From an uncultured Candidatus Saccharibacteria bacterium (lineage in GTDB: Bacteria; Patescibacteriota; Minisyncoccia; Phycocordibacterales; UBA1550), in contig CAZXOE010000002.1 of the NCBI GenBank assembly GCA_964642305.1, forward strand, positions 50,300-114,299: a stretch of DNA of 64,000 nucleotides, in the 5' to 3' direction. The position numbers and the translations under genes were made by a program. This document shows, one piece after another, positions 2,901 through 55,144 of the stretch; positions within the stretch are counted from its first letter, which is position 1; each line of letters begins with the position of its first letter. The notes under the pieces are model-generated. The model made no database searches and was not told the origin of the DNA. It saw only the letters and a program-made list of their open reading frames with translations.

Positions 2901-2948
2901 TGCCAGAAGCTCGCGCACAAGCTGGTTTTCGGGTAGAATGATGAAATA

Positions 2949-3073
2949 TGAATCCCGTTAGAGGTCGCACAGTTTTTGTAGAATGGTGAGAAACGACTAT
3001 ACTGATAGGTGATACATTATTAATGAATACTAATTAACTACGGAAATTTTTAATAATTTCCTACCTCTAACGG
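2949..3073 (+). mobile_element. MITE-like mini-element copy 1 (TIR CCCGTTAGAGGT...ACCTCTAACGGG), ORF-less
   Basis: 12-bp terminal inverted repeats at 2954-2965 and 3063-3074. 9-bp direct repeats GATGAAATA at 2940-2948 and 3074-3082. The right end abuts the pgi ATG. The ends are homologous to the copies at 20241 and 40210. Confidence 0.5.
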
Positions 3074-3074
3074 G

Positions 3075-4379
3075 ATGAAATACCAGGGACACATAAAAGA
3101 AGGAGAGCATATCACTGTGGACAATGCTCGCGTGGAGGAGTATGTCGCAAAAATGCGTCTTGCAATGAGCGACAAAGCTTATTCAACCCCAGAAGCATCT
3201 CTGAGGTTGCCCTTTGACGAGGAGCTTCTAAAAAAATCAAAAAACCTCGCAAGCAAACTCGCGGGGCCAAAGCTCACGTATATTTTAGATATTGGCATCG
3301 GGGGGTCAAACCTCGGCGCAAGGGCGCTCTATGAAGCAACCGCTGGAACTATGGACGCACACACGCCATTTGCGCCAAAAATGCTTTTTGCGGACACATG
3401 CTCACCGGAGCTTCTTTCAGATATCACGGAGCTTCTCTTGAATGAAATAGGTGACAAAGAAGAAATTATAATTATTGTCGCAAGTAAGTCTGGCACAACG
3501 ACAGAAACAATCACAAATGCATCTGTGCTTGTCAGCGCGCTTGAACAAAAATTCGGATCACTCACGGATCGCATTGTGTGCATTACGGATGAGAAGTCGC
3601 CACTTTGGATTATGGCGGAAGATCAAAAATTCCATTTGCTTCCAGTTCCAAAAAATGTAGGTGGACGTTTTTCTGTTTTCTCGCCAGCCGGAGTGTTTCC
3701 GCTTCTGTGTGCTGGTATCCCTGGAGATGCGCTTATGCGTGGAGCGCAGTCCGTTATTCACGACGCTATTGAGAGAGGAGTAGAAAGTAATTCTTTTAAA
3801 TTCGCAAAAGATATTATTTCATGGCACGAACAAGGTAGAATCGTGTTTGATTTTTTTGCGTTTCACCCAGAGCTTGAGTCTCTTGGAAAATGGTATCGTC
3901 AACTTTTTGCGGAAAGTACAGGGAAAGAAAAAACAATTGACGGCGCGCCTACAACGCACCGCATGGTGCCAACTGTATCCATAGGTTCCACCGACCTCCA
4001 TTCTGTTGAACAAATGAACCTTGCGCAACAGAATATCTCAGCGCGTTTTCTTGTTCGCGCGCATGCTCCGCACTGGGAGCACCAGTTTTTGGCAGAGGAT
4101 AAAGTGTTTGCCCCACTCGTGCCAGGTGTTTCTAGGCGCGCTCCATGTGAAATTCTTGATGCCATTTATAAAGGGGTCACTGAAACATACAAGGAACGAG
4201 GAGTTTCATATGGTGAGATTTTGCTAACTGATCTTGATCCAGAGTCGCTTGGAGCGCTTATGCAGTTTATGATGTGTACCACGATGCATCTTGCAAAACT
4301 GCTTAATATCAATGCATTTGACCAGCCAAACGTAGAGGCATACAAGGAGGCTACGAGGAGGATTTTGAGCGGGAAATAA
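3075..4379 (+). CDS. pgi: glucose-6-phosphate isomerase
   Basis: DIGIGGSNLG motif (the PGI GIGGS signature). 434 aa, PGI-like throughout. Confidence 0.75.
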   Translation: MKYQGHIKEGEHITVDNARVEEYVAKMRLAMSDKAYSTPEASLRLPFDEELLKKSKNLASKLAGPKLTYILDIGIGGSNLGARALYEATAGTMDAHTPFAPKMLFADTCSPELLSDITELLLNEIGDKEEIIIIVASKSGTTTETITNASVLVSALEQKFGSLTDRIVCITDEKSPLWIMAEDQKFHLLPVPKNVGGRFSVFSPAGVFPLLCAGIPGDALMRGAQSVIHDAIERGVESNSFKFAKDIISWHEQGRIVFDFFAFHPELESLGKWYRQLFAESTGKEKTIDGAPTTHRMVPTVSIGSTDLHSVEQMNLAQQNISARFLVRAHAPHWEHQFLAEDKVFAPLVPGVSRRAPCEILDAIYKGVTETYKERGVSYGEILLTDLDPESLGALMQFMMCTTMHLAKLLNINAFDQPNVEAYKEATRRILSGK

Positions 4380-14203: not shown

Positions 14204-14815
14204 ATGGCATCCTTCGAAAATAAAAGAAAGAATCCATCCTCATCAAATATTAGGTTTGGTGAGGCCAGGGTCATTCACGATTTACAAGAACTTAAAACCG
14301 TAGTTAAGGGTTTTCAAGATGCTGGCTTGAAAATTGTATTCACTCAAGGCGTCTATGACCTACTTCATGAAGGGCACGGTAAGTATCTTGAGTTAGCAAA
14401 AGAGCAGGGTGATATTTTGGTTGTGGGTATTGATAGTGATGAGCTTACTCGTAAACGAAAAGGCCAAAATCGCCCCGTAGTTCCTGAAGATGAAAGAATC
14501 AGAATGCTTACTTTTTTGCGTTCTGTGGACATTGTTACATTGAGAACGTTGTCAGAGACAGAAAAGGATATGGGTTATCTACACAAAGCAATCCGTCCAG
14601 ATGTTTTTGTGATGTCTAAAACGACAAAAGATTGGCCAATTGAACAACAAAGAGAAACAGAAAAACATGTCGGAAAGATTAAAATTTTTAAGCCACAAGC
14701 GGAAACGTCTAGCAGTGCCAGAATCCGCCATTTGATGATTGATGGAGCAACCGGCCTCGGTGAGAGAATCAATGATTTAGTACGAGAGTATTACGACGAA
14801 ATTAAAAAAATATAA
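14204..14815 (+). CDS. cytidylyltransferase-like nucleotidyltransferase (HxGH motif)
   Basis: FTQGVYDLLHEGHGKYL resembles the RfaE-domain-II/TagD-type HIGH nucleotidyltransferases. Confidence 0.5.
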   Translation: MASFENKRKNPSSSNIRFGEARVIHDLQELKTVVKGFQDAGLKIVFTQGVYDLLHEGHGKYLELAKEQGDILVVGIDSDELTRKRKGQNRPVVPEDERIRMLTFLRSVDIVTLRTLSETEKDMGYLHKAIRPDVFVMSKTTKDWPIEQQRETEKHVGKIKIFKPQAETSSSARIRHLMIDGATGLGERINDLVREYYDEIKKI

Positions 14816-15663
14816 TGAAAAAACGTTCTGCAGTTATTGCATTTATTCCAGTTATACACAGAGGTTATATTGATTTTATAAAAAAAACCGGTGTAACTTC
14901 TTTGTATTTACTTGAAGCATCAGATGCACCTGAGTTAGATTATCTTTCACGAGAAATACGAGCACTTACATACGAAGAAGCAAAAAAACTTTTATCTGCA
15001 CTTGGCCTTGAAGTGCATAAGTTTTCTAAGCATGTAGAAGAGCTTTCTGTTTCGGATATCGAGCTTTATATGCCAAACGAGGATATTTGCCATAGTGTGC
15101 AAGAACGTTTTTTAAAAAAGAAGAACATAATATTTATTGATACTTTTTTGCGTTGGGACTGGAACAAAACAGTTGGCTTCACATTAGCTATTCCGGAGGC
15201 AGATAGAATTGTAAAAAAGGACACAAAAGAGGCTCTAGAAGTATCAAAATATATGGGTGAACTTTTTAAGCAAGTGAATAATAGTTCAGATTGGTGGAGA
15301 CAGATTTCAGCTACTATAGTTAGTAACGAAAATAAGGTTATCACGGCCTACAATAAGCATCTCCCGAATGAATACGTTCCTTATATAGATGGAGACCCAA
15401 GAAATAATTTTAAACCAGGAGAGCACGTTGATTTGTATACATCACTTCATGGCGAAGCAGCTACAATAGCTGAAGCAGCAAGAAAAGGAATTTCACTTGA
15501 TAATGCAGAGATGTACGTAACAACATTTCCTTGTTCTCTTTGCGCGAGTCAAATAGCTGCATCGGGAATAAAAAAAGTATTTTTTACTGGAGGGTATTCA
15601 AATCTTAATGGAGTAAAGACTATGCGCGACGCAGGAGTCGAACTTATCTACATAGAGCAATAG
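14815..15663 (+). CDS. CMP/dCMP-deaminase zinc-binding domain protein with a ~170-aa N-terminal extension
   Basis: C-terminal HGEAATIAEA...PCSLCASQI (H-x-E, PC-x-x-C). The N-terminal half is unassigned. Confidence 0.6.
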   Translation: MKKRSAVIAFIPVIHRGYIDFIKKTGVTSLYLLEASDAPELDYLSREIRALTYEEAKKLLSALGLEVHKFSKHVEELSVSDIELYMPNEDICHSVQERFLKKKNIIFIDTFLRWDWNKTVGFTLAIPEADRIVKKDTKEALEVSKYMGELFKQVNNSSDWWRQISATIVSNENKVITAYNKHLPNEYVPYIDGDPRNNFKPGEHVDLYTSLHGEAATIAEAARKGISLDNAEMYVTTFPCSLCASQIAASGIKKVFFTGGYSNLNGVKTMRDAGVELIYIEQ

Positions 15664-15732: not shown

Positions 15733-16233
15733 TTACTTACTTGAATCTTTATATCCTGCAAAGAGAAGCAGGGGTTCACTATTTTTGCCCTTCTTTTTTA
15801 CTCCCAACACAAAGTGCAAATGGAAGTGATTTACGCTACCACCTGTGTAATGTGTGTCACCAAAGCGAACTAAAAGAACACCAGCAGGTAGAGAAAATTT
15901 CTTCTCCAGTTTCTTTGTAATCTGAACAAGCTCAGTGAGTGCGGGAGTTTTTAATTCCGAAAAGGAAACAATGTGTTTACGGTGAACCAAAAGGAAATGA
16001 TGCTGGGTTCCCGCGTATGCGTTAAAGTTCTCAGTCACCACCCAATGCGTGCCGTGAAAAAGAATAGGTTTTGTGTGGTACTTAGGAACCGTCGTTTTTG
16101 AAGCAAAATCTACACAAAAAGGACAGACTTTGTCGCGTACAATTTGTTCATACACAGGTCTCTTTTCTCGCGCATGCGCTACATTTACTGTTGATTTGGT
16201 TTTTTTCATGAAGGGCTCCTTATGTGGGTACAT
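15733..16233 (-). CDS. HIT-family (histidine triad) protein
   Basis: HFHLHFVLG histidine-triad motif; CPFC is upstream. Confidence 0.65.
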   Translation of the reverse strand: MYPHKEPFMKKTKSTVNVAHAREKRPVYEQIVRDKVCPFCVDFASKTTVPKYHTKPILFHGTHWVVTENFNAYAGTQHHFLLVHRKHIVSFSELKTPALTELVQITKKLEKKFSLPAGVLLVRFGDTHYTGGSVNHFHLHFVLGVKKKGKNSEPLLLFAGYKDSSK

Positions 16234-16236
16234 TAG

Positions 16237-16258
16237 CTTTTTGATTTATATCAGAAAA
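16237..16258. promoter_or_regulatory. 22-bp palindromic operator-like site CTTTTTGAT-ttat-ATCAGAAAA
   Basis: 20/22 identical to a second site at 17299-17320. The two sites flank thyA. Confidence 0.45.
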
Positions 16259-16332
16259 CTGAGCCCTTGCCAATGTTTTCATAATAAAACATCCCCGCTC
16301 TTGATAGGGAGGGGATGAGTGTTTTTAATTAT

Positions 16333-17247
16333 TTATACCGGAGTCGGTATGGTCATTTTTGGGTGTGCTTCGTAGTCCGTAAGGGTAAAATCCTTTGGTC
16401 TGAAGTCAACGATGTTTCCATTCCCCTCTGCTAGGGTGACTGTTCCAAAAGGCATTGGCTCGCGGGCTATGAGCTCCTGTACAAATGGATACTGCTCCTC
16501 GTATATGTGTACATCATTGAAAGTGTAAACAAGTTCAACAAACGTATACCCAAGGATTTGCGCCAGCATCATTCCAAATGCTCCGTATTGAATGACGTTA
16601 AAAGCCCATCCAACCGGCAAATCACCGCTTCTTTGCATGTGGTGAATGGTGAGTTCCTTTGTGTCGGGATCAGTGAGAATATAAATATCCCCATGACACG
16701 GAGCAACTACCACTTTCCTTGTACCGTTGGGCCCAATAATTTCCGGTGGATACCAATTTGTAATACGGTGAGTTCGGAGGTGTGGTGCGCGTTTGATTTG
16801 TTCAACAACCGCGGTGATTTGGTTGAATTCACCACCGTCCCTTTTGGGAAATCTTGTCCAAACTGCACCATATGATGCTGTTCCAAGATCACCTTTAGGA
16901 AGACCAAAAATCGCACATTTTTCCTTCGTTACCCAACGGTCCCACCACTTGGGATTCATTCCAAATGATACGAGCTCATCGAGAGTTTGCGCTCCATTGA
17001 GAAAACCGATATGCTCGGCAATCGCACCACGAAACATTCCTTCGGTGATTTCACGAAGATTGATTACAGGGAAACCATTTTTCATCTTGTAGTGGAATTG
17101 AGCACCTGCAATCATTTTTGCCTCGCCTCCTTGAATAGGGCGGACAATTCTACCTTCCCTCATAATCTTTTCAAGAAGGTTTCTGTATTGAAAGTCTGGA
17201 ACCCTCTGATCAAGAGGAAGATATTTTATAACTGGAGGTGTTTTCAT
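16333..17247 (-). CDS. thyA: thymidylate synthase
   Basis: Active-site region VVAPCHGDIYIL...QRSGDLPVGWAFNV (PCH / QRS.D motifs). Confidence 0.85.
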   Translation of the reverse strand: MKTPPVIKYLPLDQRVPDFQYRNLLEKIMREGRIVRPIQGGEAKMIAGAQFHYKMKNGFPVINLREITEGMFRGAIAEHIGFLNGAQTLDELVSFGMNPKWWDRWVTKEKCAIFGLPKGDLGTASYGAVWTRFPKRDGGEFNQITAVVEQIKRAPHLRTHRITNWYPPEIIGPNGTRKVVVAPCHGDIYILTDPDTKELTIHHMQRSGDLPVGWAFNVIQYGAFGMMLAQILGYTFVELVYTFNDVHIYEEQYPFVQELIAREPMPFGTVTLAEGNGNIVDFRPKDFTLTDYEAHPKMTIPTPV

Positions 17248-17298
17248 TTTTTTGGTTCCTTAAGTAGGTGGTTAGGGTAATCACATGTATCTTACTAT

Positions 17299-17320
17299 TC
17301 TTTCTGATTTATATCAGAAA
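17299..17320. promoter_or_regulatory. 22-bp perfect palindrome CTTTCTGAT-ttat-ATCAGAAAG in the thyA/dut divergent promoter
   Basis: Perfect 9-bp arms. Paired with the near-identical site at 16237-16258. Confidence 0.45.
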
Positions 17321-17372
17321 GAGCGGGATTGTCAATCTTAAGTTATTTTCACAACATGCTACTATTCTATTT

Positions 17373-17795
17373 ATGAAGGTAGAAATTAAAAAAATAAATG
17401 GTATTGCGAGGCTGCCAATATTTGCAACAAAAGGGGACGCAGGTTTTGATTTGTTTGCTGTTGAGAATAAGATAATAAAAGCAGGTAAGCGTGAATTATT
17501 AGGGACAGGCGTGGCTATAGAAATCCCAGATGGGTACGTGGGTTTAGTTTGGGATAAAAGTGGTATCTCAAATAATTATGGGATAAAGACACTCGGGGGT
17601 GTTATTGATGCAGGGTATCGTGGTGAAGTAAAAATAGGACTAATTAATTTAAGCGACAGCGATTTTTTAATTGAAGCAGGAAACAAAATTGCACAAATGT
17701 TAATTCAAAAAGTAGAACACCCAGAACTTGTTGAGGTTGATGAATTATCAAATACAGAGAGAGGGGAGAATGGTTTTGGTAGCACAGGAAAATAA
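17373..17795 (+). CDS. dut: dUTP diphosphatase
   Basis: KGDAGFDL and GVIDAGYRGEV dUTPase motifs. Start chosen at MKVEIKK. Confidence 0.85.
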   Translation: MKVEIKKINGIARLPIFATKGDAGFDLFAVENKIIKAGKRELLGTGVAIEIPDGYVGLVWDKSGISNNYGIKTLGGVIDAGYRGEVKIGLINLSDSDFLIEAGNKIAQMLIQKVEHPELVEVDELSNTERGENGFGSTGK

Positions 17796-20211: not shown

Positions 20212-20240
20212 TTTTACGCAGTCGTGGTATGCTCATTTTT

Positions 20241-20522
20241 ATGAATCCCGTTAGAGACCCCTCAGTTATGTATTACACCTATGTTATCGAGAACGATAAA
20301 GGTACATGGTATACTGGAAGTACGGGAGACCTACGGAAACGCTTTAGAGAGCACAACGAAGGGCAGGCCAACATGGACAAAAGGTAAAGGTTTGTGGAAG
20401 GTTATTTATTACGAAGCATGTCTTAATGAGCAAGATGCTCGGTCGAGAGGGATGTATTTAAAATCAAGAATGGGTAAGCGCTATCTAAAAAGTAGACTAA
20501 AGCGTTTCCTGTCTCTAATGGG
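20241..20522 (+). mobile_element. TIR mini-element copy 2 carrying a GIY-YIG nuclease ORF (TIR CCCGTTAGAGAC...GTCTCTAATGGG)
   Basis: Left end ATGAATCCCGTTAGAG is identical to the first 16 nt of copy 1. Right TIR at 20511-20522 abuts the argS ATG at 20523. Confidence 0.55.
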
Positions 20523-20526
20523 ATGA
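20268..20526 (+). pseudogene. GIY-YIG nuclease (YhbQ/UPF0213-like), interrupted by a +1 frameshift
   Basis: Frame 0 gives MYYTYVIENDKGTWYTGSTGDLRKRFREHNEGQ, the GIY-YIG core. Frame +1 continues TKGKGLWKVIYYEA...YLKSR. A 1-nt shift lies near 20370. The ORF track splits it into 20199..20387 and 20281..20526. Confidence 0.55.
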
Positions 20527-22241
20527 AAGAGAAACTAGAATCAATAGTTGCAGAGGCGCTCAAAGCGCTTGGAATTGAAACTGCGACTGTTACAATAGAA
20601 CGCCCCGCCGACATGGCGCACGGCGACTATTCCACCAACGCGGCTCTGGTTTACGGAAAGAAAGCAGGCATTCCACCGCGCGAGTTTGCGGAGAAACTAT
20701 TAGAAAAAATACGAGATGCATCACCATATGACATAGCAAAAATTGAAATCGCCGGCGCTGGGTTCGTCAATTTTTTCATGACCGCTGACGCGATAAGGGA
20801 AGAAAATAAAAAAGAAAAATGCTCTCTCGTCACTAGGTATTCAAAAAAGAATATTCTTGTGGAGCATTCTTCCCCAAATATCTTTAAACCGTTTCATATC
20901 GGGCATTTAATGAACAACATTGTTGGTGAGTTTGTCACAAGGGCAACAATAATAGGTGGCGGAAATGTCACGACTATATCTTTTCCATCAGATGTTTCCC
21001 TCGGGATTGCAAAAGCGGTGTTTGTCCTTCTTGAGGACAAAAAAGAAGGCAGAGATGTATTTGCGCTTTCAGATGAAGAAAAAATAACCGCATTTGGCGA
21101 AGCATACCGAAGGGGTGTGGAGTATTTTGACACGCGCCCCGATGAGAATGAAAAGGCAAAAGAGATAGCGCGCATCATTTATGACAAAGACCATTCATCA
21201 GAAACTCGCGCGTTTTTTGAACGCGCAAAAGAAATCAACACCGCATATCTTATAAAAATAATAAAGGAGCTTGGTTCTGTTATAGACGAGATAATTTATG
21301 AATCTGAGGCAGGTGAAATAGGGCAAGAGATTGTAGAGAAAAACACGGGCGAGGGAAAAGTGTTTGCAAAAAGTGAAGGCGCAGTGGTGTATGTCCCTGA
21401 TCCCGCGCGCAAGGATTTGCACACGCAGGTCTTTATCAACAGCGAGGGGCATCCGACATATGAAGCAAAAGATCTCGGCCTCATTGATTTGAAGTTCTCA
21501 AAATTTGCGCCCGATATTTCGTATTTTGTCACCGACACGGAGCAGGCATCGCATTTTAGGGTTGTGCTCGATGCCGCAGGGAAGCTTGGTGGTGTGTGGC
21601 CGTCGCGCGTAGAAAAAAGCATTCACATCCCGCATGGAAGAATGCTTTTCAAGGGGCAAAAAATGTCGAGCCGTCTTGGGGGTGTGCCGATCGCTCTTGA
21701 TGTTGTTGCAGTGGTGGAGGAAGAAGTAAGAGAGAGAGCAGGGGAGAAAATTGCGCACCTCGGTGCTCTAGAGAAAATGAAGCTGGAGCGTGAGATTGCG
21801 CTTTCTTCCCTCCGTGTGGCGGTCCTTCGTTCAAAGCCAGGTATTAATATTAATTTTGACCCCGAAACATCACTCTCGTTTGAAGGGGACTCAGGTCCGT
21901 ATCTTTTGTATACACACGCACGAACCGCGTCGCTTCTTGAAAAAGGGAAAGAAAAAGGATATGAGCCAACGTTTGCATCTGTGCCAGTAACACTTTTAGA
22001 AAGAGAGCTAGCGCAGTATGAGTTTGTTTTAGGGCAGGCGGTCACCGATCTTCATCCACAAAAATTAGTGACGTATCTTTTTGAAGTAGCGCAACTATTT
22101 AATGGTTTTTATGGAAGTACGCAAATCATCACAGAAGATAAAGAAACATCCGAGCATTACCTCGCCATAGTAAAGCGGCTCAAAGCAGTCCTCAAGGAAG
22201 GCCTCTGGGTGCTCGGCATTTCCGCACCGGAGAAGATGTAG
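20523..22241 (+). CDS. argS: arginyl-tRNA synthetase
   Basis: HIGH motif FHIGHLMN. Class-I ArgRS-like over 572 aa. Confidence 0.9.
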   Translation: MKEKLESIVAEALKALGIETATVTIERPADMAHGDYSTNAALVYGKKAGIPPREFAEKLLEKIRDASPYDIAKIEIAGAGFVNFFMTADAIREENKKEKCSLVTRYSKKNILVEHSSPNIFKPFHIGHLMNNIVGEFVTRATIIGGGNVTTISFPSDVSLGIAKAVFVLLEDKKEGRDVFALSDEEKITAFGEAYRRGVEYFDTRPDENEKAKEIARIIYDKDHSSETRAFFERAKEINTAYLIKIIKELGSVIDEIIYESEAGEIGQEIVEKNTGEGKVFAKSEGAVVYVPDPARKDLHTQVFINSEGHPTYEAKDLGLIDLKFSKFAPDISYFVTDTEQASHFRVVLDAAGKLGGVWPSRVEKSIHIPHGRMLFKGQKMSSRLGGVPIALDVVAVVEEEVRERAGEKIAHLGALEKMKLEREIALSSLRVAVLRSKPGININFDPETSLSFEGDSGPYLLYTHARTASLLEKGKEKGYEPTFASVPVTLLERELAQYEFVLGQAVTDLHPQKLVTYLFEVAQLFNGFYGSTQIITEDKETSEHYLAIVKRLKAVLKEGLWVLGISAPEKM

Positions 22242-22269: not shown

Positions 22270-23005
22270 AAAGGGGTCAGGTACCTTTGATTTGTGATAT
22301 AGTCTTAGTATATAATACAAACATGCCACGACTACCACGCGTTGATGTTGGAGGAGAAATTTATCACGTCATTAATCGTGCAAATGCACGGTTGCCAATT
22401 TTTTTTAAAGAAGACGACTATAAACTTTTTGAGACAATTATTGAGGAAGCGCAGATTAAATTTGGTATGAGGATTCTCGCGTATTGTTTTATGCCAAATC
22501 ATTTTCATCTTGTATTACATCCAAACAGTGACGGTGATTTGCAGAAGTTTATGCAATGGCTCACGCTTACTCATACTCAACGCTGGCACACAAAAAATGG
22601 AACGACAGGAACTGGACATCTATATCAAGGACGATACAAGTCTTTTCTTGTCCAAGGCGACAGGCACTTACTTACTATTATTCGCTATGTAGAGAGAAAT
22701 CCACTGCGGGCAAAATTGGTCAAGAAAATTGAAAACTGGAATTTCTCAAGCCTCGCTAGGCGACTTTCTGGCAATCCTAAAAAGAATAAATTACTTGAAA
22801 AGTGGCCGATTGAAATGCCAAAGAATTATCTAGCCTTTGTGAACGAACCTATGAATAAAAATGAAGAAGATGTAATCAGGTACTCTGTTAATAGAAGCAA
22901 GCCTTTTGGATCGGACACATGGAGCAGTAGAATGATCGATAAGCACGGGCTAGAGGCGACGATGCGCAACAGGGGAAGACAAATCAAAGGTACCTGACCC
23001 CTTTG
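22270..23005 (+). mobile_element. IS200-like/RAYT unit bounded by 20-bp inverted repeats (AAAGGGGTCAGGTACCTTTG / CAAAGGTACCTGACCCCTTTG)
   Basis: The IRs at 22270-22289 and 22985-23005 are perfect reverse complements. The right IR overlaps the stop codon. Confidence 0.55.
22323..22997 (+). CDS. IS200/IS605-family Y1 (HUH) transposase, REP-associated tyrosine transposase-like
   Basis: HUH motif MPNHFHLVL and a catalytic Tyr region RYVERNPLRA. The TATATAATACAAAC promoter is fused to the ATG. Confidence 0.7.
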   Translation: MPRLPRVDVGGEIYHVINRANARLPIFFKEDDYKLFETIIEEAQIKFGMRILAYCFMPNHFHLVLHPNSDGDLQKFMQWLTLTHTQRWHTKNGTTGTGHLYQGRYKSFLVQGDRHLLTIIRYVERNPLRAKLVKKIENWNFSSLARRLSGNPKKNKLLEKWPIEMPKNYLAFVNEPMNKNEEDVIRYSVNRSKPFGSDTWSSRMIDKHGLEATMRNRGRQIKGT

Positions 23006-23616: not shown

Positions 23617-26600
23617 ATGAAAAATATTTTCCATCGTTCCGCCGAGTTTATTGCAAAACACAAACACCATCACCATATCGCGCTCGCTACGCTCGCGCTC
23701 GTTATAGCAGGCGCAGGAGTGTACACATATCGGCACGAAATAGCGCAGGCGGCAACATATACTTTTACACAGTCCTCGTGGGCAGGCGGAGCTACTGCGA
23801 ACACCGCAGTGCACCCGACCAATCAATCAAGCTGGACGCAATATTCCGCAAATTCGGCAGATATAACTGCTGATGCAAGTAGTGTGAGACTAAACACGGT
23901 AAGCTACTCCTTTACAGATGACGGCACTAGCACTACCACCAGCCCAATAGCCACAGGTGGCGGTTTTTCAAGTGGTGCAAATTCCTCAACGGCGATTTCC
24001 GGTTCAGGCACAGGCGCGAGCGTGGGCTTGATGTTGAATGAATATGGCTGGGCAGTGGGAAATAGTGGAACCATACGAAAAACTGCCAACAGCGGGGAAA
24101 CTTGGTCTACCCAAACAAGTGGGACAACCAATGGTCTTAATAACCTCTACTTCATCGACTCCAATATCGGCTGGGCGGTGGGAGGTAGCGGAGTCATACG
24201 AAAAACCATAGACGGTGGTACAAACTGGCCTACCCAAACAAGCAGCGGGATAACCGCAAATGGTGTCCACTTCATCGACGCCAATACCGGCTGGGTGGTG
24301 GGAGGTGACGGAACTAATGGAATTATACGAAAAACCATCAACGGCGGAACAAGCTGGTCTACCCAACTAACGATAGGAGGCTATATGGATTTTTTCGATG
24401 TTCATTTCATTGACGCTAATACCGGATGGGCAGTGGGAAATCAAGCAACGATAAAAAAAACTATAGACGGTGGTACAACTTGGTCTACCCAAACAAGTGC
24501 GAGAAGTGCAGAACTTTACGCCGTCCACTTCATCGATACCAACACCGGCTGGGTGGTGGGAGCTTACGGAATACAAAAAACCATAGACGGTGGTACAACT
24601 TGGTCTACCCAAACAAGCGAGACACAATGGCTTCGCGGTGTCCACTTCATCGACGCCAATATCGGCTGGGCGGTGGGAGGTAGCGGAGTCATACGAAAAA
24701 CCATAGACGGTGGTACAAACTGGCCTACCCAAACAAGCGGGACAACCCAACAACTTAGAGGCGTCCACTTCACTGACGCCAATACCGGCTGGGCGGTAGG
24801 AGCAGCCGGCACCATACTCAAAACCACCAACGGCGGTACTACATGGACAGCTCAAACAAGCGGGACGACTCAGAATCTTAATAACCTCTACTTCGTATCT
24901 TATTATTCCAACCCCGGCACCTTCACTTCTGCAGATATTGACCTCGGGGCGAATGTTATCTTTAGTGGAAAAACATTAGATTGGACGGAAAGTTTGAACG
25001 GTGGCGATATTCAAATTCAAATGAGAAGCGCAACTACGCAAGGAGGGCTTTCTGGAGCGACATGGTACGGTCCGACTGGTACAGGGGATTATTATACAGC
25101 AAGTGGCGGTAGTAGTATAAACACTGTTCACAATGGTCATAGGTGGATTCAATACCGAGCAACTTTAACTACTCCTAATACAGCCCTTACCCCCACACTT
25201 GATTCTGTAACGATAAATTACACGCAATACGCAAGCGCGGGCGATTTAACTTCTTCTAAATATGATGTCGGGTCAGATACTCTTATTTCTAGACTTAGCT
25301 GGGTTGCGTCTACTACAACCACAGAAACTGTCGCTTTCCAGGTGCAGTCCTCACCGGACAACTCCACATGGACAGGTTGGTGCGGATTTAGCGAGACAGG
25401 CCCAACGTGCGATGGGTCAAACTATTTCACAGACGCGCACAATGGCGTAGCACTTGGCACTAGTCACCCGCTTCGTTCAGGCACTGGAGCAGGTGCTGAC
25501 AGATATTTCCAATATAAAGTATTCCTTGTTTCAGGCGGAGCTGTGACGCCAGAGCTAACATCTGTTACGGTGCAATATGTGATTAACGCGCCACCGGATG
25601 TTCAAAATGTCACTGCTGTGCAAAATGCAGATGGGACTGTGACGGTGAATTTTGATATGCGTGATACCGACACCAATGATGCTGGTGCCGCCACTCCAGG
25701 AAAAGTTATTTCTACACTGCAGTACAATAATGCGGCATGTGGTGCTGGACCTTCATGGGCTGATGCGGCCGCGGTTACTGGAGCTGTCGGCGCGAATACA
25801 ACCATTACTGCCACGTATCCAACAAGCGCGAGCTCCACTATTACATGGACTCCTTCTACCGACTGGTCGGATAAGTACTGCGCAACACAGCAAGTTCGTA
25901 TAAAATTGAATGACTCTGAGGGTGCAAATAATCTTGGGTATAGCACCGCGGCATCGTTTTTGCTCGATACCACAGCGCCTGTTGTAGCGTCAACCGGCGG
26001 TTTCCTTGTGGATTCCTCTGTAGGAGGAGCTGGACTTGCGGGCATAAAACTTACCGCAACAGATGACAGCACTATGCAGTATAGACTTTGCAATAATTCA
26101 GACTTTACAGCAGACGGATTGAACTCGGGTGCTGGTGCCTGCACAGAATGGAGCTCTGCTTCTGCGTCCGTTGACCTTACTACATCAGCAAATTCGTGGA
26201 ACACAGCTCTAGGCGCGGATGGAACAGAAACTGTATATATGCAAGTGCGTGATTTGTATGGCAACGTGACATCTAGGACAGCTAGCGCGCCAACGGTACC
26301 ACCATCGTTTATTGCAACTGACACAACAAACCTCAACAGCGACACGTACAGAGAGTTTTTGAGCTGGGGAAAAGCTTCATCAACTACATTTGGATCATAT
26401 AAGGTCTATTACAACACCACAGGCTCTGGTGCTAGCTATTCATTGCTTGGCACAGTTACAGATGTAAACCAAAATTACTATACACACACGATAACAACAG
26501 CAACAAGCTCAACACACTACTACAAGATGGTTACTGTTAGCGCGAACGGCGATATTTCAGAATTTACATCCGTAAAATCAGATGTCCCTGACGGCTCGGG

Positions 26601-29025
26601 AAGCACTGATGTTACGGCGCCGTATATACCATACGCCGGCATCGCGGTGTCGTCTGTGAGAAACACGTCTGCAAACATAACATTTAGCACGTATACAGAT
26701 GTTTCTTTGGCAGAAGGCGAGCTCGCAACCTCTACTGTGCGATACGCGAGCTATACTGGGAATGCGCCAACATCCTGCCCAACCACGTCTTCAACAAACT
26801 CAAACACATATGTTGTGAACCACAGCGTATATCTTACAGATCTAACTCCTTCTACCAGCTATGTGTTCTGTGTTCTTGCAAAAGATATTTCTGGGAATGT
26901 GAGTACGGCATCATATGTGGCGGAGTCTGGCGGAACATTTACAACCATAGGTGGCCCAAGAATAACAGGAGTGACACAAAGAGAAATTACAGACACATCC
27001 GCAACTATTTTCTGGAACACAGACACAAGCTCTGATTCAAAGGTGTATTTTTCAACTAGCGCGGGTGGCGTAAACGGAGCGACCCCAGTTACGGGAGCCG
27101 TTGTTACCACGTCTGGAACAAACGAAAATGGCACATTTTATCAGCATCAAATAGGGCTCACTGGTTTGACTCCCGGCCTAACATATTATTACAAGGTTTC
27201 CTCAACAGACGCTCTAGACTCAGAGTTGGTAGCAATAGATGACAATACTGGGCAATATTACAGTTTTGTAACCTTGAAGGACACAACCCCACCAATCATT
27301 ATGGGTACTTCTACGCCAGTGCTAGCGCCAACTGCCGCTGTTATTGTGTGGCAGACGGACGAAATGGCAGACTCGCAAGTATTTTATGATACCGTGTCGC
27401 ACGGAACAGACACATCCCTTTATCCAAAATACACAGCGACACAAAGCTACCCTACAAGCGTAAAGTCTATTTACCATGTAATGACACTGTCCTCAGACAC
27501 AGCAAATTCTGGAAGTGGTGGTGGAACGAACGCTCTTATAAAGGAGACACAGTATTACTATGTTGTGAAATCAACCGATTCAGCTGGCAACTCTTCTGTT
27601 TCGACGGGGACATTTACGACACCTGCAGACGGTAACGTTACTATTACTGTAGTGAGAGTAACCCAAGCATCAGAGGGTACACCACCAGACACAGCAGGCC
27701 CTGTTTTGTCTAGTGTGAAGGTCAGTGATATTACTCCGTTTGGAGCTACAGTTTCGTTTGATACGAATGAGGATGCTGTAAGTTTTGTTGAATACGGCAA
27801 AAGCGCGTCATTTGGCGATAGCGCTGGTAGCAAGACGTGGAGTAAAACACACTCCATAAAACTTCGCGGGTTAACTCTTGGCACTGAGTACTATATAAAA
27901 GTTTCTGCTGTAGATAAAGCAGGGAACACGGGTACAGGAGGTGAACAAACATTCAAAACATCGTTCCTTTCGGAGGATTTGAAAGACCTCACGAAGATAG
28001 AAAATATTGAGCAATTCCAAAAGGAGATTGAGGCAACGATTGAGTCAATCCTCCCGTCGCTCGTGCCTCCATTTATCACAAAGCCAGTCATTAGTGATAT
28101 CACAGAAGGTAGTGCAAAGATTTCATTTAGAACAAACATAAAAGCATTTCCAGTGGTTGTGTTTGCAGAGGATGGCGTATACGATGAAACAAAAGAAAAT
28201 CCGTATACAGGAGAGATGTCAGACACAACAGAAAAAGCTACGAGCCACGAGCTCGCCCTCACTGGTCTCAAGGGTAACACAAAGTATCATATTCAGGCGC
28301 GAGGGTTCTCTCTACCAAAGGTAATTGGCAAGTCAGCAGACGTGACATTTATCACAAAGGCGTCAAAGATTGCGGGTTCTATCGTGGAGCGCAAAAAAGA
28401 TTCGTTTACAGTGGTATGGACCACGGAACAGCCAACGTCATCAATTGTTGAGTTTAAAGATTTGAAGCGTGGCATAACAGGTCGTAAGACAGATGATGCA
28501 AAAAAGAAATCTCACTCTATGAAGATTGAAAACCTTCCTTCTGGAACTGCGTATGAAGTAAATCTTTCTGGAGTGACGGAGCAGGGGAATGTCGCAGAGG
28601 CTGGGTCGCCAATTTCTGTAACAACATCAACAGATACCACACCGCCAGTTATTTCAGGATTTAAAGTGGACAATGCTCTTGTTCCAGGCAGAACAGACAG
28701 AATCCAGACTATTGTGTCGTGGGTTACTGATGAGCCTTCAGACTCTACAGTTTACTATCAAGAAGGCGCTGGTACTCCGGGCGATACAGAGGAGCTTGCA
28801 AACAAAAATGAAGTGTTAGATTCGTATATTACGAACCACAGCGTTATTCTTCCAAGCTTGAAGCCAGGCACTATTTACCGATTAAAGGTTACATCAAGCG
28901 ATGACTCTGGAAACCTTGGTTCATTTGGCCCTCGCACAGTCATTACTCCAAAGCAGACTGAGTCCATCACCGATATCATTTTCAAGAACTTTGAAGACAG
29001 CTTCAAGTTCCTCCAGAAGATATAA
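23617..29025 (+). CDS. giant (1802 aa) membrane-anchored cell-surface protein: N-terminal TM, ~8 BNR/Ycf48-like beta-propeller blades, multiple FN3-like domains
   Basis: Repeated GW(A/V)VG..G.I.KT.DGGT.W..QTSGTT..L..VHF.D.N.GW blades. Later recurring ...YYYKVS..D..GN / TEYYIKVSAVDKAGN FN3-like beta-sandwich signatures. Confidence 0.65.
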   Translation: MKNIFHRSAEFIAKHKHHHHIALATLALVIAGAGVYTYRHEIAQAATYTFTQSSWAGGATANTAVHPTNQSSWTQYSANSADITADASSVRLNTVSYSFTDDGTSTTTSPIATGGGFSSGANSSTAISGSGTGASVGLMLNEYGWAVGNSGTIRKTANSGETWSTQTSGTTNGLNNLYFIDSNIGWAVGGSGVIRKTIDGGTNWPTQTSSGITANGVHFIDANTGWVVGGDGTNGIIRKTINGGTSWSTQLTIGGYMDFFDVHFIDANTGWAVGNQATIKKTIDGGTTWSTQTSARSAELYAVHFIDTNTGWVVGAYGIQKTIDGGTTWSTQTSETQWLRGVHFIDANIGWAVGGSGVIRKTIDGGTNWPTQTSGTTQQLRGVHFTDANTGWAVGAAGTILKTTNGGTTWTAQTSGTTQNLNNLYFVSYYSNPGTFTSADIDLGANVIFSGKTLDWTESLNGGDIQIQMRSATTQGGLSGATWYGPTGTGDYYTASGGSSINTVHNGHRWIQYRATLTTPNTALTPTLDSVTINYTQYASAGDLTSSKYDVGSDTLISRLSWVASTTTTETVAFQVQSSPDNSTWTGWCGFSETGPTCDGSNYFTDAHNGVALGTSHPLRSGTGAGADRYFQYKVFLVSGGAVTPELTSVTVQYVINAPPDVQNVTAVQNADGTVTVNFDMRDTDTNDAGAATPGKVISTLQYNNAACGAGPSWADAAAVTGAVGANTTITATYPTSASSTITWTPSTDWSDKYCATQQVRIKLNDSEGANNLGYSTAASFLLDTTAPVVASTGGFLVDSSVGGAGLAGIKLTATDDSTMQYRLCNNSDFTADGLNSGAGACTEWSSASASVDLTTSANSWNTALGADGTETVYMQVRDLYGNVTSRTASAPTVPPSFIATDTTNLNSDTYREFLSWGKASSTTFGSYKVYYNTTGSGASYSLLGTVTDVNQNYYTHTITTATSSTHYYKMVTVSANGDISEFTSVKSDVPDGSGSTDVTAPYIPYAGIAVSSVRNTSANITFSTYTDVSLAEGELATSTVRYASYTGNAPTSCPTTSSTNSNTYVVNHSVYLTDLTPSTSYVFCVLAKDISGNVSTASYVAESGGTFTTIGGPRITGVTQREITDTSATIFWNTDTSSDSKVYFSTSAGGVNGATPVTGAVVTTSGTNENGTFYQHQIGLTGLTPGLTYYYKVSSTDALDSELVAIDDNTGQYYSFVTLKDTTPPIIMGTSTPVLAPTAAVIVWQTDEMADSQVFYDTVSHGTDTSLYPKYTATQSYPTSVKSIYHVMTLSSDTANSGSGGGTNALIKETQYYYVVKSTDSAGNSSVSTGTFTTPADGNVTITVVRVTQASEGTPPDTAGPVLSSVKVSDITPFGATVSFDTNEDAVSFVEYGKSASFGDSAGSKTWSKTHSIKLRGLTLGTEYYIKVSAVDKAGNTGTGGEQTFKTSFLSEDLKDLTKIENIEQFQKEIEATIESILPSLVPPFITKPVISDITEGSAKISFRTNIKAFPVVVFAEDGVYDETKENPYTGEMSDTTEKATSHELALTGLKGNTKYHIQARGFSLPKVIGKSADVTFITKASKIAGSIVERKKDSFTVVWTTEQPTSSIVEFKDLKRGITGRKTDDAKKKSHSMKIENLPSGTAYEVNLSGVTEQGNVAEAGSPISVTTSTDTTPPVISGFKVDNALVPGRTDRIQTIVSWVTDEPSDSTVYYQEGAGTPGDTEELANKNEVLDSYITNHSVILPSLKPGTIYRLKVTSSDDSGNLGSFGPRTVITPKQTESITDIIFKNFEDSFKFLQKI
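24040..24870 (+). repeat. near-identical ~120-135-bp nucleotide repeats encoding the propeller blades
   Basis: Strings such as ccatagacggtggtacaacttggtctacccaaacaagc recur several times; this is the source of many spurious antisense ORFs. Confidence 0.7.
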
Positions 29026-29116: not shown

Positions 29117-29185
29117 GGCGTTTCCTATTCTGTCTGTCCTATTACCTATTTACATCTATAGATGTAAATAGGTAATAGGACAGGA
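29117..29185. repeat. palindrome containing CCTATTTACATCTATAGATGTAAATAGG
   Basis: Imperfect ~69-bp palindrome whose 28-bp core recurs at 29779-29808. Confidence 0.6.
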
Positions 29186-29199
29186 AACGCTGGAAGTCT

Positions 29200-29763
29200 T
29201 TAAAGATTAAAATATTTTCGTACCCGAGACTCGTTTTCTATATCGCTAGCAGTAATAAGAAAAATATGTTCTCTCACATTAAAACAATCCCCTAAAAAAT
29301 CAACTTCTTTTTTGCATTCGAACGGTGTTATGAAAACAGATTTTTGGTATGGGTAGCAATTTGCTTTTTTTAACAGTTTATTTAATGCTTGCCTTGAGAA
29401 CTTCTTTTCTTCTGGTATATCAAACATTATTATTCGCCATTTTTTGTCCCACTTTTCGTGTTTATCAGACCTGTCTAATTTTAGATTATTTAGTCGAGCT
29501 TCTTTCCTGCCTTTGTCAGTAAGCGCAACATAAATCTCACCTCCACGATTCTCCATTTTTATTAAACCTTTATTTTTTAAACTTCCTGCTGAGCGTCTTA
29601 TTTTTAGTTTTATTTTCCCATCTTCAATATCAATATATTTGAGCAACTGCGCCAGGTTTGGAAGCGCGAGAATCATAACAAAAGCCCCAGTCGTTAGCAG
29701 AGAGGTTAGGATAATTTTTGAAATCTCACCTTTATCGTATTTTTGTGTATGGCTATTATTCAC
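29200..29763 (-). CDS. PaaX-like protein (winged-helix N-terminus, Cas2-fold C-terminal domain), N-terminal TM
   Basis: KWDKKWRIIMFDIPEEKK...QKSVFITP matches the PaaX C-domain / Cas2-like fold pattern (W.G.W..V.FDIPE....R.....L...G....SV). No cas genes or array nearby. Confidence 0.4.
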   Translation of the reverse strand: MNNSHTQKYDKGEISKIILTSLLTTGAFVMILALPNLAQLLKYIDIEDGKIKLKIRRSAGSLKNKGLIKMENRGGEIYVALTDKGRKEARLNNLKLDRSDKHEKWDKKWRIIMFDIPEEKKFSRQALNKLLKKANCYPYQKSVFITPFECKKEVDFLGDCFNVREHIFLITASDIENESRVRKYFNL

Positions 29764-29778
29764 TGTTAAAAGTATACC

Positions 29779-29808
29779 TATTTACATCTATAGATGTAAA
29801 TAGGTATA
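29779..29808. repeat. 28-bp perfect palindrome CCTATTTACATCTATAGATGTAAATAGG (second copy)
   Basis: Identical core to 29140-29170. The pair brackets the PaaX-like gene. Confidence 0.6.
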
Positions 29809-40188: not shown

Positions 40189-40209
40189 ATTGCAGTCGTG
40201 GTTACTTGT

Positions 40210-40327
40210 CCCGTTAGAGATAACTCAGTTATGTTTTCGGCGATAATGGGATATACTGAGATTACTATTATTAGAAGTTAAATATAATTAAGATAAGGAA
40301 ATTTAATAATTTCCTATCGCTAACGGG
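40210..40327 (+). mobile_element. TIR mini-element copy 3 (CCCGTTAGAGATA...TATCGCTAACGGG), ORF-less deletion derivative
   Basis: Left end shares cccgttagaga..ctcagttatg with copy 2. Right end shares ggaaatttaataatttcctaNNNctaacggg with copy 1. It abuts the metG ATG. Confidence 0.5.
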
Positions 40328-49030: not shown

Positions 49031-49180
49031 CTAATGGACACTGGCAATCATTGACTTTTCTCAAATGTCCGTTATATAATGGACAAACATTACGAAGTTC
49101 GAGATAAAGGACATATTCTAAAAAAAGCACGAAATAAAGGACACCTTAAAGACACACAATGGACTACAATAAGGACATCA
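49031..49180 (+). promoter_or_regulatory. promoter (TTGACT-18-TATAAT) with a periodic array of AAGGACA / ATGGACA repeats
   Basis: GGACA cores at 49036, 49081, 49109, 49139 and 49173, spaced ~28-45 bp, spanning the -10 box, the leader and the first codons. Confidence 0.45.
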
Positions 49181-54124: not shown

Positions 54125-54318
54125 TTTTACTAGGGACTAAGTAACAACGAAAAGAGTCTTAGTCTCAAATTAGGTCAATGCGTCGCTTCAGAGAAATTAT
54201 CTCGAACGAGCTAAACCCAAAACGAAACTAACCTCCCTGCCCGCCACTGCCTGTCGCTCCTGAATTAGCAAATTCACGTCTTGGACGCAAATGAGCAGTT
54301 AGGCGATGGCAGGCGGGA

Positions 54319-54357
54319 ATTCAGAAAAAGACCCCTTTCTCTTACGAGAAAGGGGTC
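54319..54357 (+). terminator. intrinsic terminator
   Basis: gacccctttctc-ttac-gagaaaggggtc with flanking A and T runs. Confidence 0.6.
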
Positions 54358-54375
54358 TTTTTCGTGCTCAAATCC

Positions 54376-54411
54376 CCAAGCTCCCCAAGGCCCGGCCTAT
54401 GTACATAGGCC
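54376..54411. repeat. 36-bp perfect palindrome CCAAGGCCCGGCCTATGTACATAGGCCGGGCCTTGG (REP-like, left of RAYT #2)
   Basis: Read directly; identical to 55109-55144. Confidence 0.85.
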
Positions 54412-54434
54412 GGGCCTTGGTATATAATACAAGC

Positions 54435-55088: not shown

Positions 55089-55108
55089 CCCCGAGGACTA
55101 CCAAACCA

Positions 55109-55144
55109 CCAAGGCCCGGCCTATGTACATAGGCCGGGCCTTGG
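55109..55144. repeat. 36-bp perfect palindrome, identical second copy (right of RAYT #2)
   Basis: Read directly. Confidence 0.85.

What the first reader, a model, noticed from the sequence alone, without database searches (positions are those of the whole stretch)
16237..17320. Near-identical 22-bp palindromes bracket thyA (operator-like pair)
CTTTTTGAT-ttat-ATCAGAAAA (16237-16258) lies between thyA's 3' end and the HIT-gene promoter. CTTTCTGAT-ttat-ATCAGAAAG (17299-17320) lies in the thyA/dut divergent promoter. The two are 20/22 identical; the second is a perfect palindrome with 9-bp arms. The TGAT-N4-ATCA core suggests a dimeric HTH repressor. Position implies co-regulation of thyA, dut (plus folA-glyA-tmk downstream) and the HIT gene. 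It matches no regulator box I know; it is not NrdR (ACACWATATWGTGT-type) and not LexA.
Basis: seen in the sequence. Interest (0 to 1): 0.55.

Follow-up and report, generated by a model that had tools for sequence, protein, structure and literature searches.

The report
Duplicated thyA promoter that reads as palindrome
The two near-identical "palindromes" are the core of one ordinary bacterial promoter present twice, once before the thymidylate synthase gene and once before the HIT-family gene after it; relatives keep the promoter but not the symmetry, so a repressor site is possible but not shown.

Summary
The second is a perfect palindrome with 10-bp arms (17299-17322).

Both copies lie in the same orientation on the minus strand. 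Each is the spacer, extended -10, -10 and start-site part of a sigma-70-type promoter: TTGACA-16-TGaTATAAA for thyA and TTGGCA-17-TGaTATAAA for the HIT gene. The similarity also covers the -35 and the ribosome-binding segment, so the HIT promoter and leader are a duplicate of thyA's.

I collected 18 such promoters from about 11 related Parcubacteria genomes (Yonathbacteria-like). All keep TTGACAAa-N6-TTTTCTGATATAAA, and only at thyA, HIT or folA-thyA. The right arm varies: symmetry is 10/10 and 8/10 here and 1-7/10 elsewhere.

The two copies are homogenised within genomes (42 identical bases in L032). The dut promoter is separate, and its distance from the site is not conserved.

Best reading: a duplicated promoter module. 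An overlapping operator for an unknown dimeric repressor, specific to this lineage, is not excluded (about 0.3). Modest interest.

The parts
17299..17322 (-). thyA promoter core. On the minus strand it reads TCTTTCTGAT-ATAA-ATCAGAAAGA. This covers the T-rich spacer end, the extended -10 TG (17316-17315), the -10 TATAAA (17313-17308), the discriminator TCAG and the predicted start near A17301. It is a perfect palindrome with 10-bp arms.
17330..17335 (-). thyA -35 hexamer TTGACA, 16 nt upstream of TATAAA. TTGACAA is conserved in relatives.
17254..17269 (-). thyA leader and ribosome-binding segment ACCTACTTAAGGAACC. It has a paralogous counterpart before the HIT gene (13/16 identical; 4 of 500 shuffles score as well).
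16333..17247 (-). thyA coding sequence (304 aa, Thymidylat_synt, E = 3.5e-55).
16290..16317 (-). thyA terminator hairpin CATCCCCTC...GAGCGGGGATG followed by UUUUAUUAU (-12.9 kcal/mol, z = -2.6). It separates thyA from the HIT promoter.
16268..16273 (-). HIT-gene -35 hexamer TTGGCA, 17 nt upstream of TATAAA.
16236..16259 (-). HIT-gene promoter core, the paralogous copy. On the minus strand it reads GTTTTCTGAT-ATAA-ATCAAAAAGC, with the -10 TATAAA at 16250-16245 and a predicted start near 16238-16239. 8 of 10 arm positions are symmetric.
16214..16229 (-). HIT leader and ribosome-binding segment ACCCACATAAGGAGCC, paralogous to the thyA leader segment.
15733..16209 (-). HIT-family gene (158 aa from the ATG at 16209, which has an AAGGAG ribosome-binding site). 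It is conserved directly downstream of thyA across Paceibacteria-type genomes.
17357..17365 (+). Predicted separate dut promoter, extended -10 TGcTACTAT. The dut ATG is at 17373, so the mRNA is probably leaderless or nearly so. This promoter is not part of the repeated box.
   Evidence: read; dut CDS; relatives

Best explanation
The two 22-mers are the core of one sigma-70-type, extended -10 promoter module that occurs twice on the minus strand. One copy drives thyA. The other is a duplicate, placed after the thyA terminator, that drives the HIT-family gene, which in more distant relatives follows thyA with little or no gap.

Read in the direction of transcription, the module is TTGACA(A) - 16/17 nt ending in TTTTC - TG a TATAAA - TCA(G/A)AAAG, with the start at the conserved A-G. 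The left arm of the palindrome is therefore the T-rich spacer plus the TG of the extended -10. The centre is the -10. The right arm is the discriminator and the first transcribed bases.

The 20/22 identity comes from common descent of the two copies and repeated homogenisation between them, plus selection on promoter function.

Shown:
- position, polarity and promoter geometry;
- conservation of the module at orthologous and paralogous promoters in relatives;
- non-conservation of the dyad symmetry;
- paralogy extending to the -35 and the ribosome-binding segment.

Inferred:
- that RNA polymerase starts there (no transcript data);
- that the full symmetry in this genome is a lineage-specific by-product, or at most a lineage-specific gain of an operator.
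For: - Both sites lie on the same strand, with TTGACA-16-TATAAA (17335-17308) and TTGGCA-17-TATAAA (16273-16245), each preceded by TG one base upstream.
- They are the only candidate promoters upstream of thyA and HIT. HIT's lies just after the thyA terminator hairpin.
- 18 promoter instances from about 11 related genomes share TTGACAAa-N6-TTT TCTGATATAAA TcAc..AG. Three outgroup folA-thyA operons have TTGACG-N12-TCTGATA[GTA]AA.
- Apart from one intragenic hit (L005), the TCTGATATAA-type pattern was found only at thyA, HIT or folA-thyA promoters in the window and the related loci then held (L001-L030). L031-L034, fetched later, carry it at thyA and HIT too.
- Arm symmetry is 10/10 and 8/10 in the window but 1-7/10 in all relatives.
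- The thyA and HIT copies are homogenised within genomes. In L032 they are identical over 42 nt, including the otherwise variable spacer. In L029 they are similar through the 5' UTR.
- In the window the similarity also covers the -35 (9/11) and the ribosome-binding segment (13/16; 4 of 500 shuffles).
- Other promoters of this genome and its relatives also use T-rich spacer ends and TGn extended -10s, for example TCTGC-TATACT at 37447 and TTTTGTA-TATAAT at 63592.
- Control: the rplK promoter is conserved over about 15 nt around its -10 in the same genomes. This degree of conservation is therefore normal for orthologous promoters here.
Against: - None of the 18 module promoters has the consensus T at -7: 14 have TATAAA, 2 TATAAC, and one each TAGAAC and TAAAAC. 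Every other promoter I could read in these genomes has T at -7. A plain promoter would be expected to drift to T. In the inner clade, A at -7 is the symmetric partner of T at -12.
- Given the conserved parts, five further positions had to match to make the 10-bp arms perfect. My rough estimate is about 1e-3 per promoter, or about 1-2% over the roughly 12 independent promoters examined (base frequencies; post hoc).
- The second copy in the same genome is also unusually symmetric (8/10).
- There are no transcript data for the start sites.
Confidence: 0.62

Rival explanations
1. Operator superimposed on the promoter. In this lineage a dimeric (helix-turn-helix type) repressor binds the dyad TCTGAT-N4-ATCAGA, which overlaps the -10 and +1 of both the thyA and HIT promoters. 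It shuts them off together, for example in response to thymidylate or folate status. This is compatible with the promoter reading and adds a regulator to it.
For: - Perfect 10-bp arms at thyA and 8/10 at HIT, the two highest symmetry scores among 18 promoters.
- Only two copies in 64 kb, both before functionally linked genes.
- The core TGAT-ATAA-ATCA is kept at 9 of 18 promoters.
- A rather than T at -7 is conserved and is the symmetric partner of T at -12.
- The geometry is the 22-bp TGA-N6-TCA layout used by Crp/Fnr-type proteins. The HIT site matches TTGAT-N4-ATCAA in 9/10 positions and the thyA site in 8/10 (the consensus is from my own knowledge).
Against: - Symmetry is not conserved. 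The right arms in relatives are ATCACTTAG, ATTACTTAG, AGCACCAAG and AGTGCTGAG, while the left arm, which is also promoter, is invariant.
- There is no co-variation between position -16 and position -3.
- Identity of the two copies within a genome extends into the unconstrained spacer in L032. That points to gene conversion, not to a shared protein.
- No Crp/Fnr or other plausible regulator was found next to the cluster or among the 46 window ORFs scanned.
- The rest of the genome could not be searched for further sites.
Confidence: 0.3
2. RNA or DNA hairpin function. The palindrome would act as a stem-loop in a transcript (terminator, processing or stability element) or as a cruciform or single-strand hairpin recognised by the Y1 (IS200-like) transposases encoded in the window.
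For: - As RNA the thyA site would fold at -11.8 kcal/mol (z = -5.9) and the HIT site at -5.9 kcal/mol.
- The window carries two Y1-transposase genes flanked by long palindromes.
Against: - With the predicted start sites, only the right arm is transcribed.
- No U-run follows either hairpin.
- The hairpin is not conserved in relatives.
- The sequence is unlike the G+C-rich palindromes flanking the transposase genes.
- Rfam gives nothing.
- The 5' UTRs are unstructured.
Confidence: 0.04
3. A bidirectional regulatory site shared with dut. One protein bound at the thyA/dut dyad would repress thyA and activate or repress the divergent dut-folA-glyA-tmk operon.
For: In the window the dyad centre lies 62.5 bp upstream of the dut ATG, which is the probable leaderless start. 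This is close to a class I activator position (sequence; the class I spacing is from my own knowledge).
Against: - The distance is 53.5 bp in L001 and 37.5 bp in L029.
- In other relatives dut is elsewhere in the locus, while the module stays with thyA or folA-thyA.
- dut has its own extended -10 promoter without the box.
Confidence: 0.05

Closest known systems
Extended -10 (TGnTATAAT) sigma-70 / sigma-A promoters
   Same: - -35 TTGACA.
- 16-17 nt spacer.
- TG one base upstream of the -10.
- T and A at -12 and -11.
- A start about 7 nt downstream.
- The position in front of the gene is conserved at orthologous sites.
   Different: The -10 is TATAAA or TATAAC. The otherwise near-universal T at -7 is absent in all 18 copies, whereas other promoters of the same genomes have it.
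Promoter duplication or propagation within a genome (identical promoter modules in front of non-homologous genes; recalled from the literature on 'mobile promoters', not checked here)
   Same: - The same -35, spacer-end, -10, start and part of the leader are found before two unrelated genes 1 kb apart.
- The copies are kept alike within each genome.
   Different: - Only two copies, both local and both in one pathway cluster.
- No sign of an associated mobile element.
Crp/Fnr-family 22-bp dyad sites (TGTGA-N6-TCACA; TTGAT-N4-ATCAA)
   Same: - TGA-N6-TCA core and 22-bp overall symmetry.
- The HIT site is 9/10 and the thyA site 8/10 to the FNR core.
   Different: - The discriminating position 5/18 is C/G here, against G/C for CRP and T/A for FNR.
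- The site overlaps the -10 rather than lying at -41.5 or -61.5.
- No Crp/Fnr protein was found in the window.
- The symmetry is not conserved in relatives.
NrdR boxes (regulator of deoxyribonucleotide synthesis genes)
   Same: An A+T-rich palindrome in promoters of genes that make DNA precursors.
   Different: - No match to acaCwAtATaTwGtgt at up to 3 mismatches.
- No tandem pair of boxes.
- The arm sequence has a different orientation (CTGAT...ATCAG, against CAC...GTG).

Membership tests
sigma-70-type extended -10 promoter | -35 hexamer close to TTGACA, 16-18 nt upstream of the -10 | tested here: met
   TTGACA-16 (thyA) and TTGGCA-17 (HIT). TTGACAA is kept in 12 of 15 inner-clade copies.
sigma-70-type extended -10 promoter | TG at -15/-14 | tested here: met
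   TG is present in all 18 copies: TCTGaTATAAA in 17 and TTTGgTATAAA in L021.
sigma-70-type extended -10 promoter | -10 hexamer TATAAT with A at -11 and T at -7 | tested here: inconclusive
   T at -12, A at -11 and A at -8 are present. Position -7 is A or C in 18 of 18 copies. The tool's own scan rejects the sites for that reason.
sigma-70-type extended -10 promoter | Located upstream of a gene in the right orientation, and conserved at the orthologous position | tested here: met
sigma-70-type extended -10 promoter | Transcription start mapped about 7 nt downstream | not testable with these tools
   No transcript data. The conserved A-G at the expected position is only suggestive.
palindromic operator of a dimeric repressor | Dyad symmetry of the site | tested here: met
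   10/10 and 8/10 arm positions in the window.
palindromic operator of a dimeric repressor | Both half-sites conserved in related genomes | tested here: not met
   The left arm is invariant but coincides with promoter elements. The right arm scores 1-7/10, and ATCA is absent in L032, L022, L025 and L026.
palindromic operator of a dimeric repressor | A cognate DNA-binding protein encoded in the genome or next to the regulon | tested here: inconclusive
   No regulator lies in the cluster in the window. A PaaX_M-like winged-helix gene lies inside the thymidylate cluster in L020 and L032-L034, and at 29200-29763 in the window. It carries its own, different palindromes. The rest of the genome was not available.
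palindromic operator of a dimeric repressor | Further sites before other genes of the pathway (a regulon) | tested here: inconclusive
   Only thyA, HIT and folA-thyA carry the box in the window and the related loci scanned. The dut, dCMP-deaminase-operon and rplK promoters lack it. nrd genes were not in the data.
NrdR box | 16-bp palindrome acaCwAtATaTwGtgt, usually two boxes about 31 bp apart | tested here: not met
   0 matches at up to 3 mismatches in the window.
Crp/Fnr-type site | TGA-N6-TCA core within a 22-bp dyad | tested here: met
Crp/Fnr-type site | A Crp/Fnr-family protein (cNMP-binding domain plus HTH_Crp) encoded in the organism | tested here: inconclusive
   None among the 46 window ORFs scanned with Pfam. 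About a dozen larger ORFs and the rest of the genome were not scanned.
dispersed repeat / REP-like family | Many copies at unrelated places | tested here: not met
   Two copies in the window and none elsewhere in the related loci scanned. The 15 exact 18-mer hits in the viral collection are in unrelated contexts.

The most novel reading that the evidence does not exclude
In this Parcubacteria lineage the duplicated thyA/HIT promoter has been recruited as the operator of an unidentified dimeric repressor. The repressor would bind TCTTTCTGAT-N4-ATCAGAAAGA over the -10 and +1 and switch dTMP synthesis (thyA plus the always-linked HIT-family enzyme) on and off. The conserved non-consensus A at -7 would then be the trace of this dual use. 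This would be a first cis-regulatory site with an assignable regulon in an organism of the Candidate Phyla Radiation, and a dedicated transcriptional control of thymidylate synthase, which is not a well-described kind of regulon.
Probability: 0.3. Interest if true: 0.45.

Novelty: new member of a known kind. Interest (0 to 1): 0.25.

Why it matters
- It turns an apparent regulator box into an annotated promoter pair for an uncultured Parcubacteria lineage (Yonathbacteria-like). It supplies a clade promoter consensus: TTGACA, a T-rich spacer end, TGn and TAnnnT.
- It shows local promoter duplication with homogenisation, used to keep thyA and its HIT-family partner co-expressed after a terminator split the operon.
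- It leaves one oddity for follow-up: an obligatory non-T at -7 in all 18 copies. This may mark an overlapping regulator or a special kinetic property of the promoter.
- The practical value is modest: better start-site and operon annotation, and a short list of sites to test if a regulator is ever sought.

Tried and rejected
- **NrdR and LexA-type boxes.** No NrdR consensus anywhere in the window. LexA was judged only by eye.
- **RNA element.** Rfam gave nothing at gathering thresholds for the whole window, and only chance-level hits at E up to 5 around the sites. The 5' UTRs are unstructured.
- **Dispersed repeat or phage-derived operator.** The exact 18-mer scan of viral contigs gave 15 hits in unrelated contexts.
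- **Class I-type activation of dut.** Rejected because the spacing is 62.5, 53.5 and 37.5 bp in three genomes.
- **PaaX_M-like protein as the regulator.** It lies inside the thymidylate cluster in L020 and L032-L034. It is always preceded by its own long palindrome of different sequence, and it sits beside mobile-element debris. I treat it as a passenger rather than the thyA regulator.
- **Search for a regulator in the window.** Pfam or NCBIfam scans of 46 window ORFs found only a receiver-only response regulator, a PaaX-like protein and a protein with a weak DeoR-type HTH at 49159-50031.
- **Literature.** Two full-text searches found nothing on a thyA operator or on cis-regulation in the Candidate Phyla Radiation.
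- **Limits.** I could therefore not scan the rest of this organism's genome for more sites.

Full report
**1. Observation**

The window reads CTTTTTGATTTATATCAGAAAA at 16237-16258.

At up to three mismatches these are the only two copies in 64 kb, with 0.00 expected in shuffles. The second site is a perfect palindrome that extends to 10-bp arms, TCTTTCTGAT-TTAT-ATCAGAAAGA, 17299-17322. The first site has 8 of 10 symmetric arm positions.

The other perfect palindromes of the window are mostly G+C-rich terminator hairpins, or the long palindromes next to two Y1-transposase genes and a PaaX-like gene.

Pfam confirms the gene map:
- minus strand: HIT family (15733-16209) and thyA (16333-17247);
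- plus strand: dut (17373-17795), folA, glyA, tmk and argS;
- upstream: a cytidylyltransferase-like gene and a dCMP-deaminase-like gene, after secE-nusG-rplK.

ThyA relatives place the organism among Parcubacteria/Paceibacterota near Candidatus Yonathbacteria.

**2. What the boxes are**

Both boxes have the same polarity. Read on the minus strand, the strand of thyA and HIT, they are:
- ...TTGACA ATCCCGCTCTTTCTGA TATAAA TCAGAAAG... (thyA);
- ...TTGGCA AGGGCTCAGTTTTCTGA TATAAA TCAAAAAG... (HIT).

Each is a -35 hexamer, a 16- or 17-nt spacer, a TG one base before the -10, and the -10 itself. The left arm of the palindrome is the T-rich end of the spacer plus the extended -10 TG. The centre is the -10. 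The right arm is the discriminator and the first transcribed bases.

The HIT copy lies just downstream of the thyA terminator hairpin (16290-16317, -12.9 kcal/mol, followed by U-rich sequence). The two boxes therefore do not bracket thyA as an operator pair. They are the promoters of two successive genes.

Similarity between the two regions is not confined to the 22-mer. The -35 regions match 9/11. A leader and ribosome-binding segment, ACCTACTTAAGGAACC against ACCCACATAAGGAGCC, matches 13/16, and only 4 of 500 shuffles score as well. The HIT promoter and leader are a shortened duplicate of thyA's.

**3. Relatives**

I collected thyA loci from genome and metagenome collections and by contig look-ups.

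Eighteen promoter instances from about 11 genomes carry the module. ThyA identity to the window is 66-79%. The inner-clade consensus is TTGACAAa-N6-TTT TCTGATATAAA TcAc..AG. Three Yonathbacteria-type genomes in which folA-thyA form an operon have TTGACG-N12-TCTGATA[GTA]AA before folA.

Apart from one intragenic hit (L005), the pattern was found only at thyA, HIT or folA-thyA promoters in the window and the related loci scanned.

The right arm is variable: ATCACATAG, ATCACTTAG, CTCAGTCAG, ATTACTTAG, AGCACCAAG, AGTGCTGAG, AGAATAAAG. Arm symmetry is 1-7 of 10 in relatives, against 10 and 8 in the window. The dyad symmetry is thus particular to this genome, while the asymmetric promoter module is what is conserved.

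As a control, the rplK promoter of the same genomes is conserved over about 15 nt around its -10 (cttgaaaaat...a.t.a.ggtagactca). Conservation of this extent is normal for orthologous promoters in the clade and does not by itself indicate an operator.

**4. The two copies evolve together**

- In L032-L034 the thyA and HIT promoters are identical over 42 nt, including the spacer that differs between genomes.
- In L029 they are alike through most of the 5' UTR.
- In L020 both share ATTAC.TAG.
- Several relatives (L001, L006, L019, L021, L022, L025) have no second copy. There HIT follows the thyA terminator directly, with a TGTTATGCT-type extended -10.
- In more distant genomes HIT follows thyA with little or no gap.

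The simplest history has two steps. The thyA-HIT operon was split by a terminator. The thyA promoter and leader were then duplicated before HIT and have since been homogenised, either by gene conversion or by repeated duplication. That accounts for the 20/22 identity without a shared binding protein.

**5. What still speaks for a regulator**

- None of the 18 copies has T at -7: 14 have TATAAA, 2 TATAAC, and one each TAGAAC and TAAAAC. The other promoters readable in these genomes (dut, rplK, the cytidylyltransferase operon, the alternative HIT promoters and others in the window) all have T there. In the inner clade, A at -7 is the mirror of T at -12 in TGAT-ATAA-ATCA. That core is intact at 9 of 18 promoters.
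- Given the conserved parts, five more positions had to match to give perfect 10-bp arms. I estimate roughly 1e-3 per promoter, or about 1-2% over the independent promoters seen. This estimate is post hoc, and the site was picked because it is a palindrome.
- The second copy in the same genome is the next most symmetric.
- The layout, a 22-bp dyad with TGA-N6-TCA, is the one used by Crp/Fnr-type proteins. The HIT site is 9/10 and the thyA site 8/10 to TTGAT-N4-ATCAA (the consensus is from my own knowledge).

Against a regulator:
- There is no co-variation between mirrored positions in relatives.
- No regulator gene lies in or near the cluster in the window.
- I could not scan the remainder of the genome.

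A PaaX_M-type winged-helix gene lies inside the thymidylate cluster in L020 and L032-L034. In each case it is preceded by its own long palindrome of unrelated sequence and lies beside mobile-element remnants. I regard it as a passenger.

**6. dut and the rest of the cluster**

dut has its own extended -10 promoter, TGcTACTAT at 17357-17365. Its ATG lies 8 nt after that -10, so the mRNA is probably leaderless. Relatives have TGtTATACT, TGaTATAAT and similar.

The distance from the dyad centre to the dut ATG is 62.5, 53.5 and 37.5 bp in the window, L001 and L029. In other relatives dut is elsewhere in the locus. Co-regulation of dut-folA-glyA-tmk through this box is not supported.

**7. Other readings rejected**

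- NrdR: no consensus match in the window.
- RNA element: no Rfam family. With the predicted starts, only the right arm is transcribed. The leaders are unstructured.
- Repeat family or phage operator: exact-match hits in viral contigs are few and in unrelated contexts.

**8. Verdict**

The feature is a duplicated sigma-70-type extended -10 promoter module for thyA and the HIT-family gene, conserved in related Parcubacteria. Its full dyad symmetry is lineage-specific. An overlapping operator in this genome is possible (about 0.3) but rests on symmetry alone.

This is a new member of a known kind, of modest interest. The obligatory non-T at -7 is the one detail that no explanation here fully accounts for.

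Noticed in passing
window 2930-3085, 20225-20535, 40190-40340; also L032 between tmk and the PaaX-like gene: A repeated element of about 150 nt, with one 310-nt copy that carries a GIY-YIG ORF remnant. Its terminal inverted repeats are ATGAATCCCGTTAGAG ... CTCTAACGGGATGA, and it has an internal TATACT -10-like box. In all three window copies the last bases of the element supply the ATG of the downstream gene (pgi at 3075, argS at 20523, metG at 40328). It looks like a small mobile element, or a mobile promoter and leader, that inserts exactly at start codons.
   Followed up: partly
window 29134-29183 and 29775-29806, flanking ORF 29200-29763 (-): A PaaX_M / Cas2-like winged-helix gene (187 aa) is bracketed by two copies of a perfect palindrome, TACCTATTTACATCTATAGATGTAAATAGGTA. 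The downstream copy extends to 50 nt. The upstream copy overlaps a TTTACA-18-TATACT promoter, so autoregulation is likely. Homologous genes in L020 and L032-L034 sit inside the thymidylate cluster, each with its own long palindrome of different sequence.
   Followed up: partly
window 22270-23004 and 54385-55144: Two Y1 (IS200-like) transposase genes. The first (22287-22997) is bracketed by a 26-nt inverted repeat. For the second (54306-55088), identical 37-nt palindromes lie at 54385-54421, inside the 5' part of the ORF as called, and at 55108-55144, just after it. These are probably IS200/IS605- or REP/RAYT-type end hairpins. Together with the PaaX-like case, this shows that identical palindromes around a gene are a habit of this genome, for reasons unrelated to thyA.
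   Followed up: partly
window 15733-16209 (-); L005, L007-L010 directly after thyA: A HIT-family protein of about 155-160 aa with a conserved CPFC motif always follows thyA across Paceibacteria-type genomes. It matches no NCBIfam model. This is an uncharacterised enzyme with a tight link to thymidylate synthesis.
   Followed up: no
thyA and HIT 5' UTRs: window about 17272-17279, L001, L020, L021, L029: A short leader motif, AGT[ACT]CCCT, recurs 13-16 nt downstream of the promoter block in most relatives, and 26 nt downstream in the window's thyA leader (ATTACCCT). No structure is predicted and its function is unknown.
   Followed up: no
window 14815-15663 (+) and 14204-14815 (+): The dCMP-deaminase-like protein has an N-terminal extension of about 140 aa with no Pfam hit. 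It is always co-transcribed with a cytidylyltransferase-like protein (weak RfaE domain II / CoaD similarity) next to the thymidylate genes. This may be an unrecognised step in pyrimidine deoxynucleotide metabolism in these organisms.
   Followed up: no
window 23617-29025 (+), repeats 24046-24861: A very large (1802 aa) protein with tandem repeats of about 120 nt encoding PSII_BNR/Ycf48-like units plus fn3 and Big_3 domains. It is probably a surface protein.
   Followed up: no
window 16211-16218 and 16261-16268: An 8-nt inverted repeat, AAGGGCTC / GAGCCCTT, flanks the HIT promoter box asymmetrically. One arm lies in the ribosome-binding region and the other in the promoter spacer. It is probably chance and was not examined further.
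   Followed up: no
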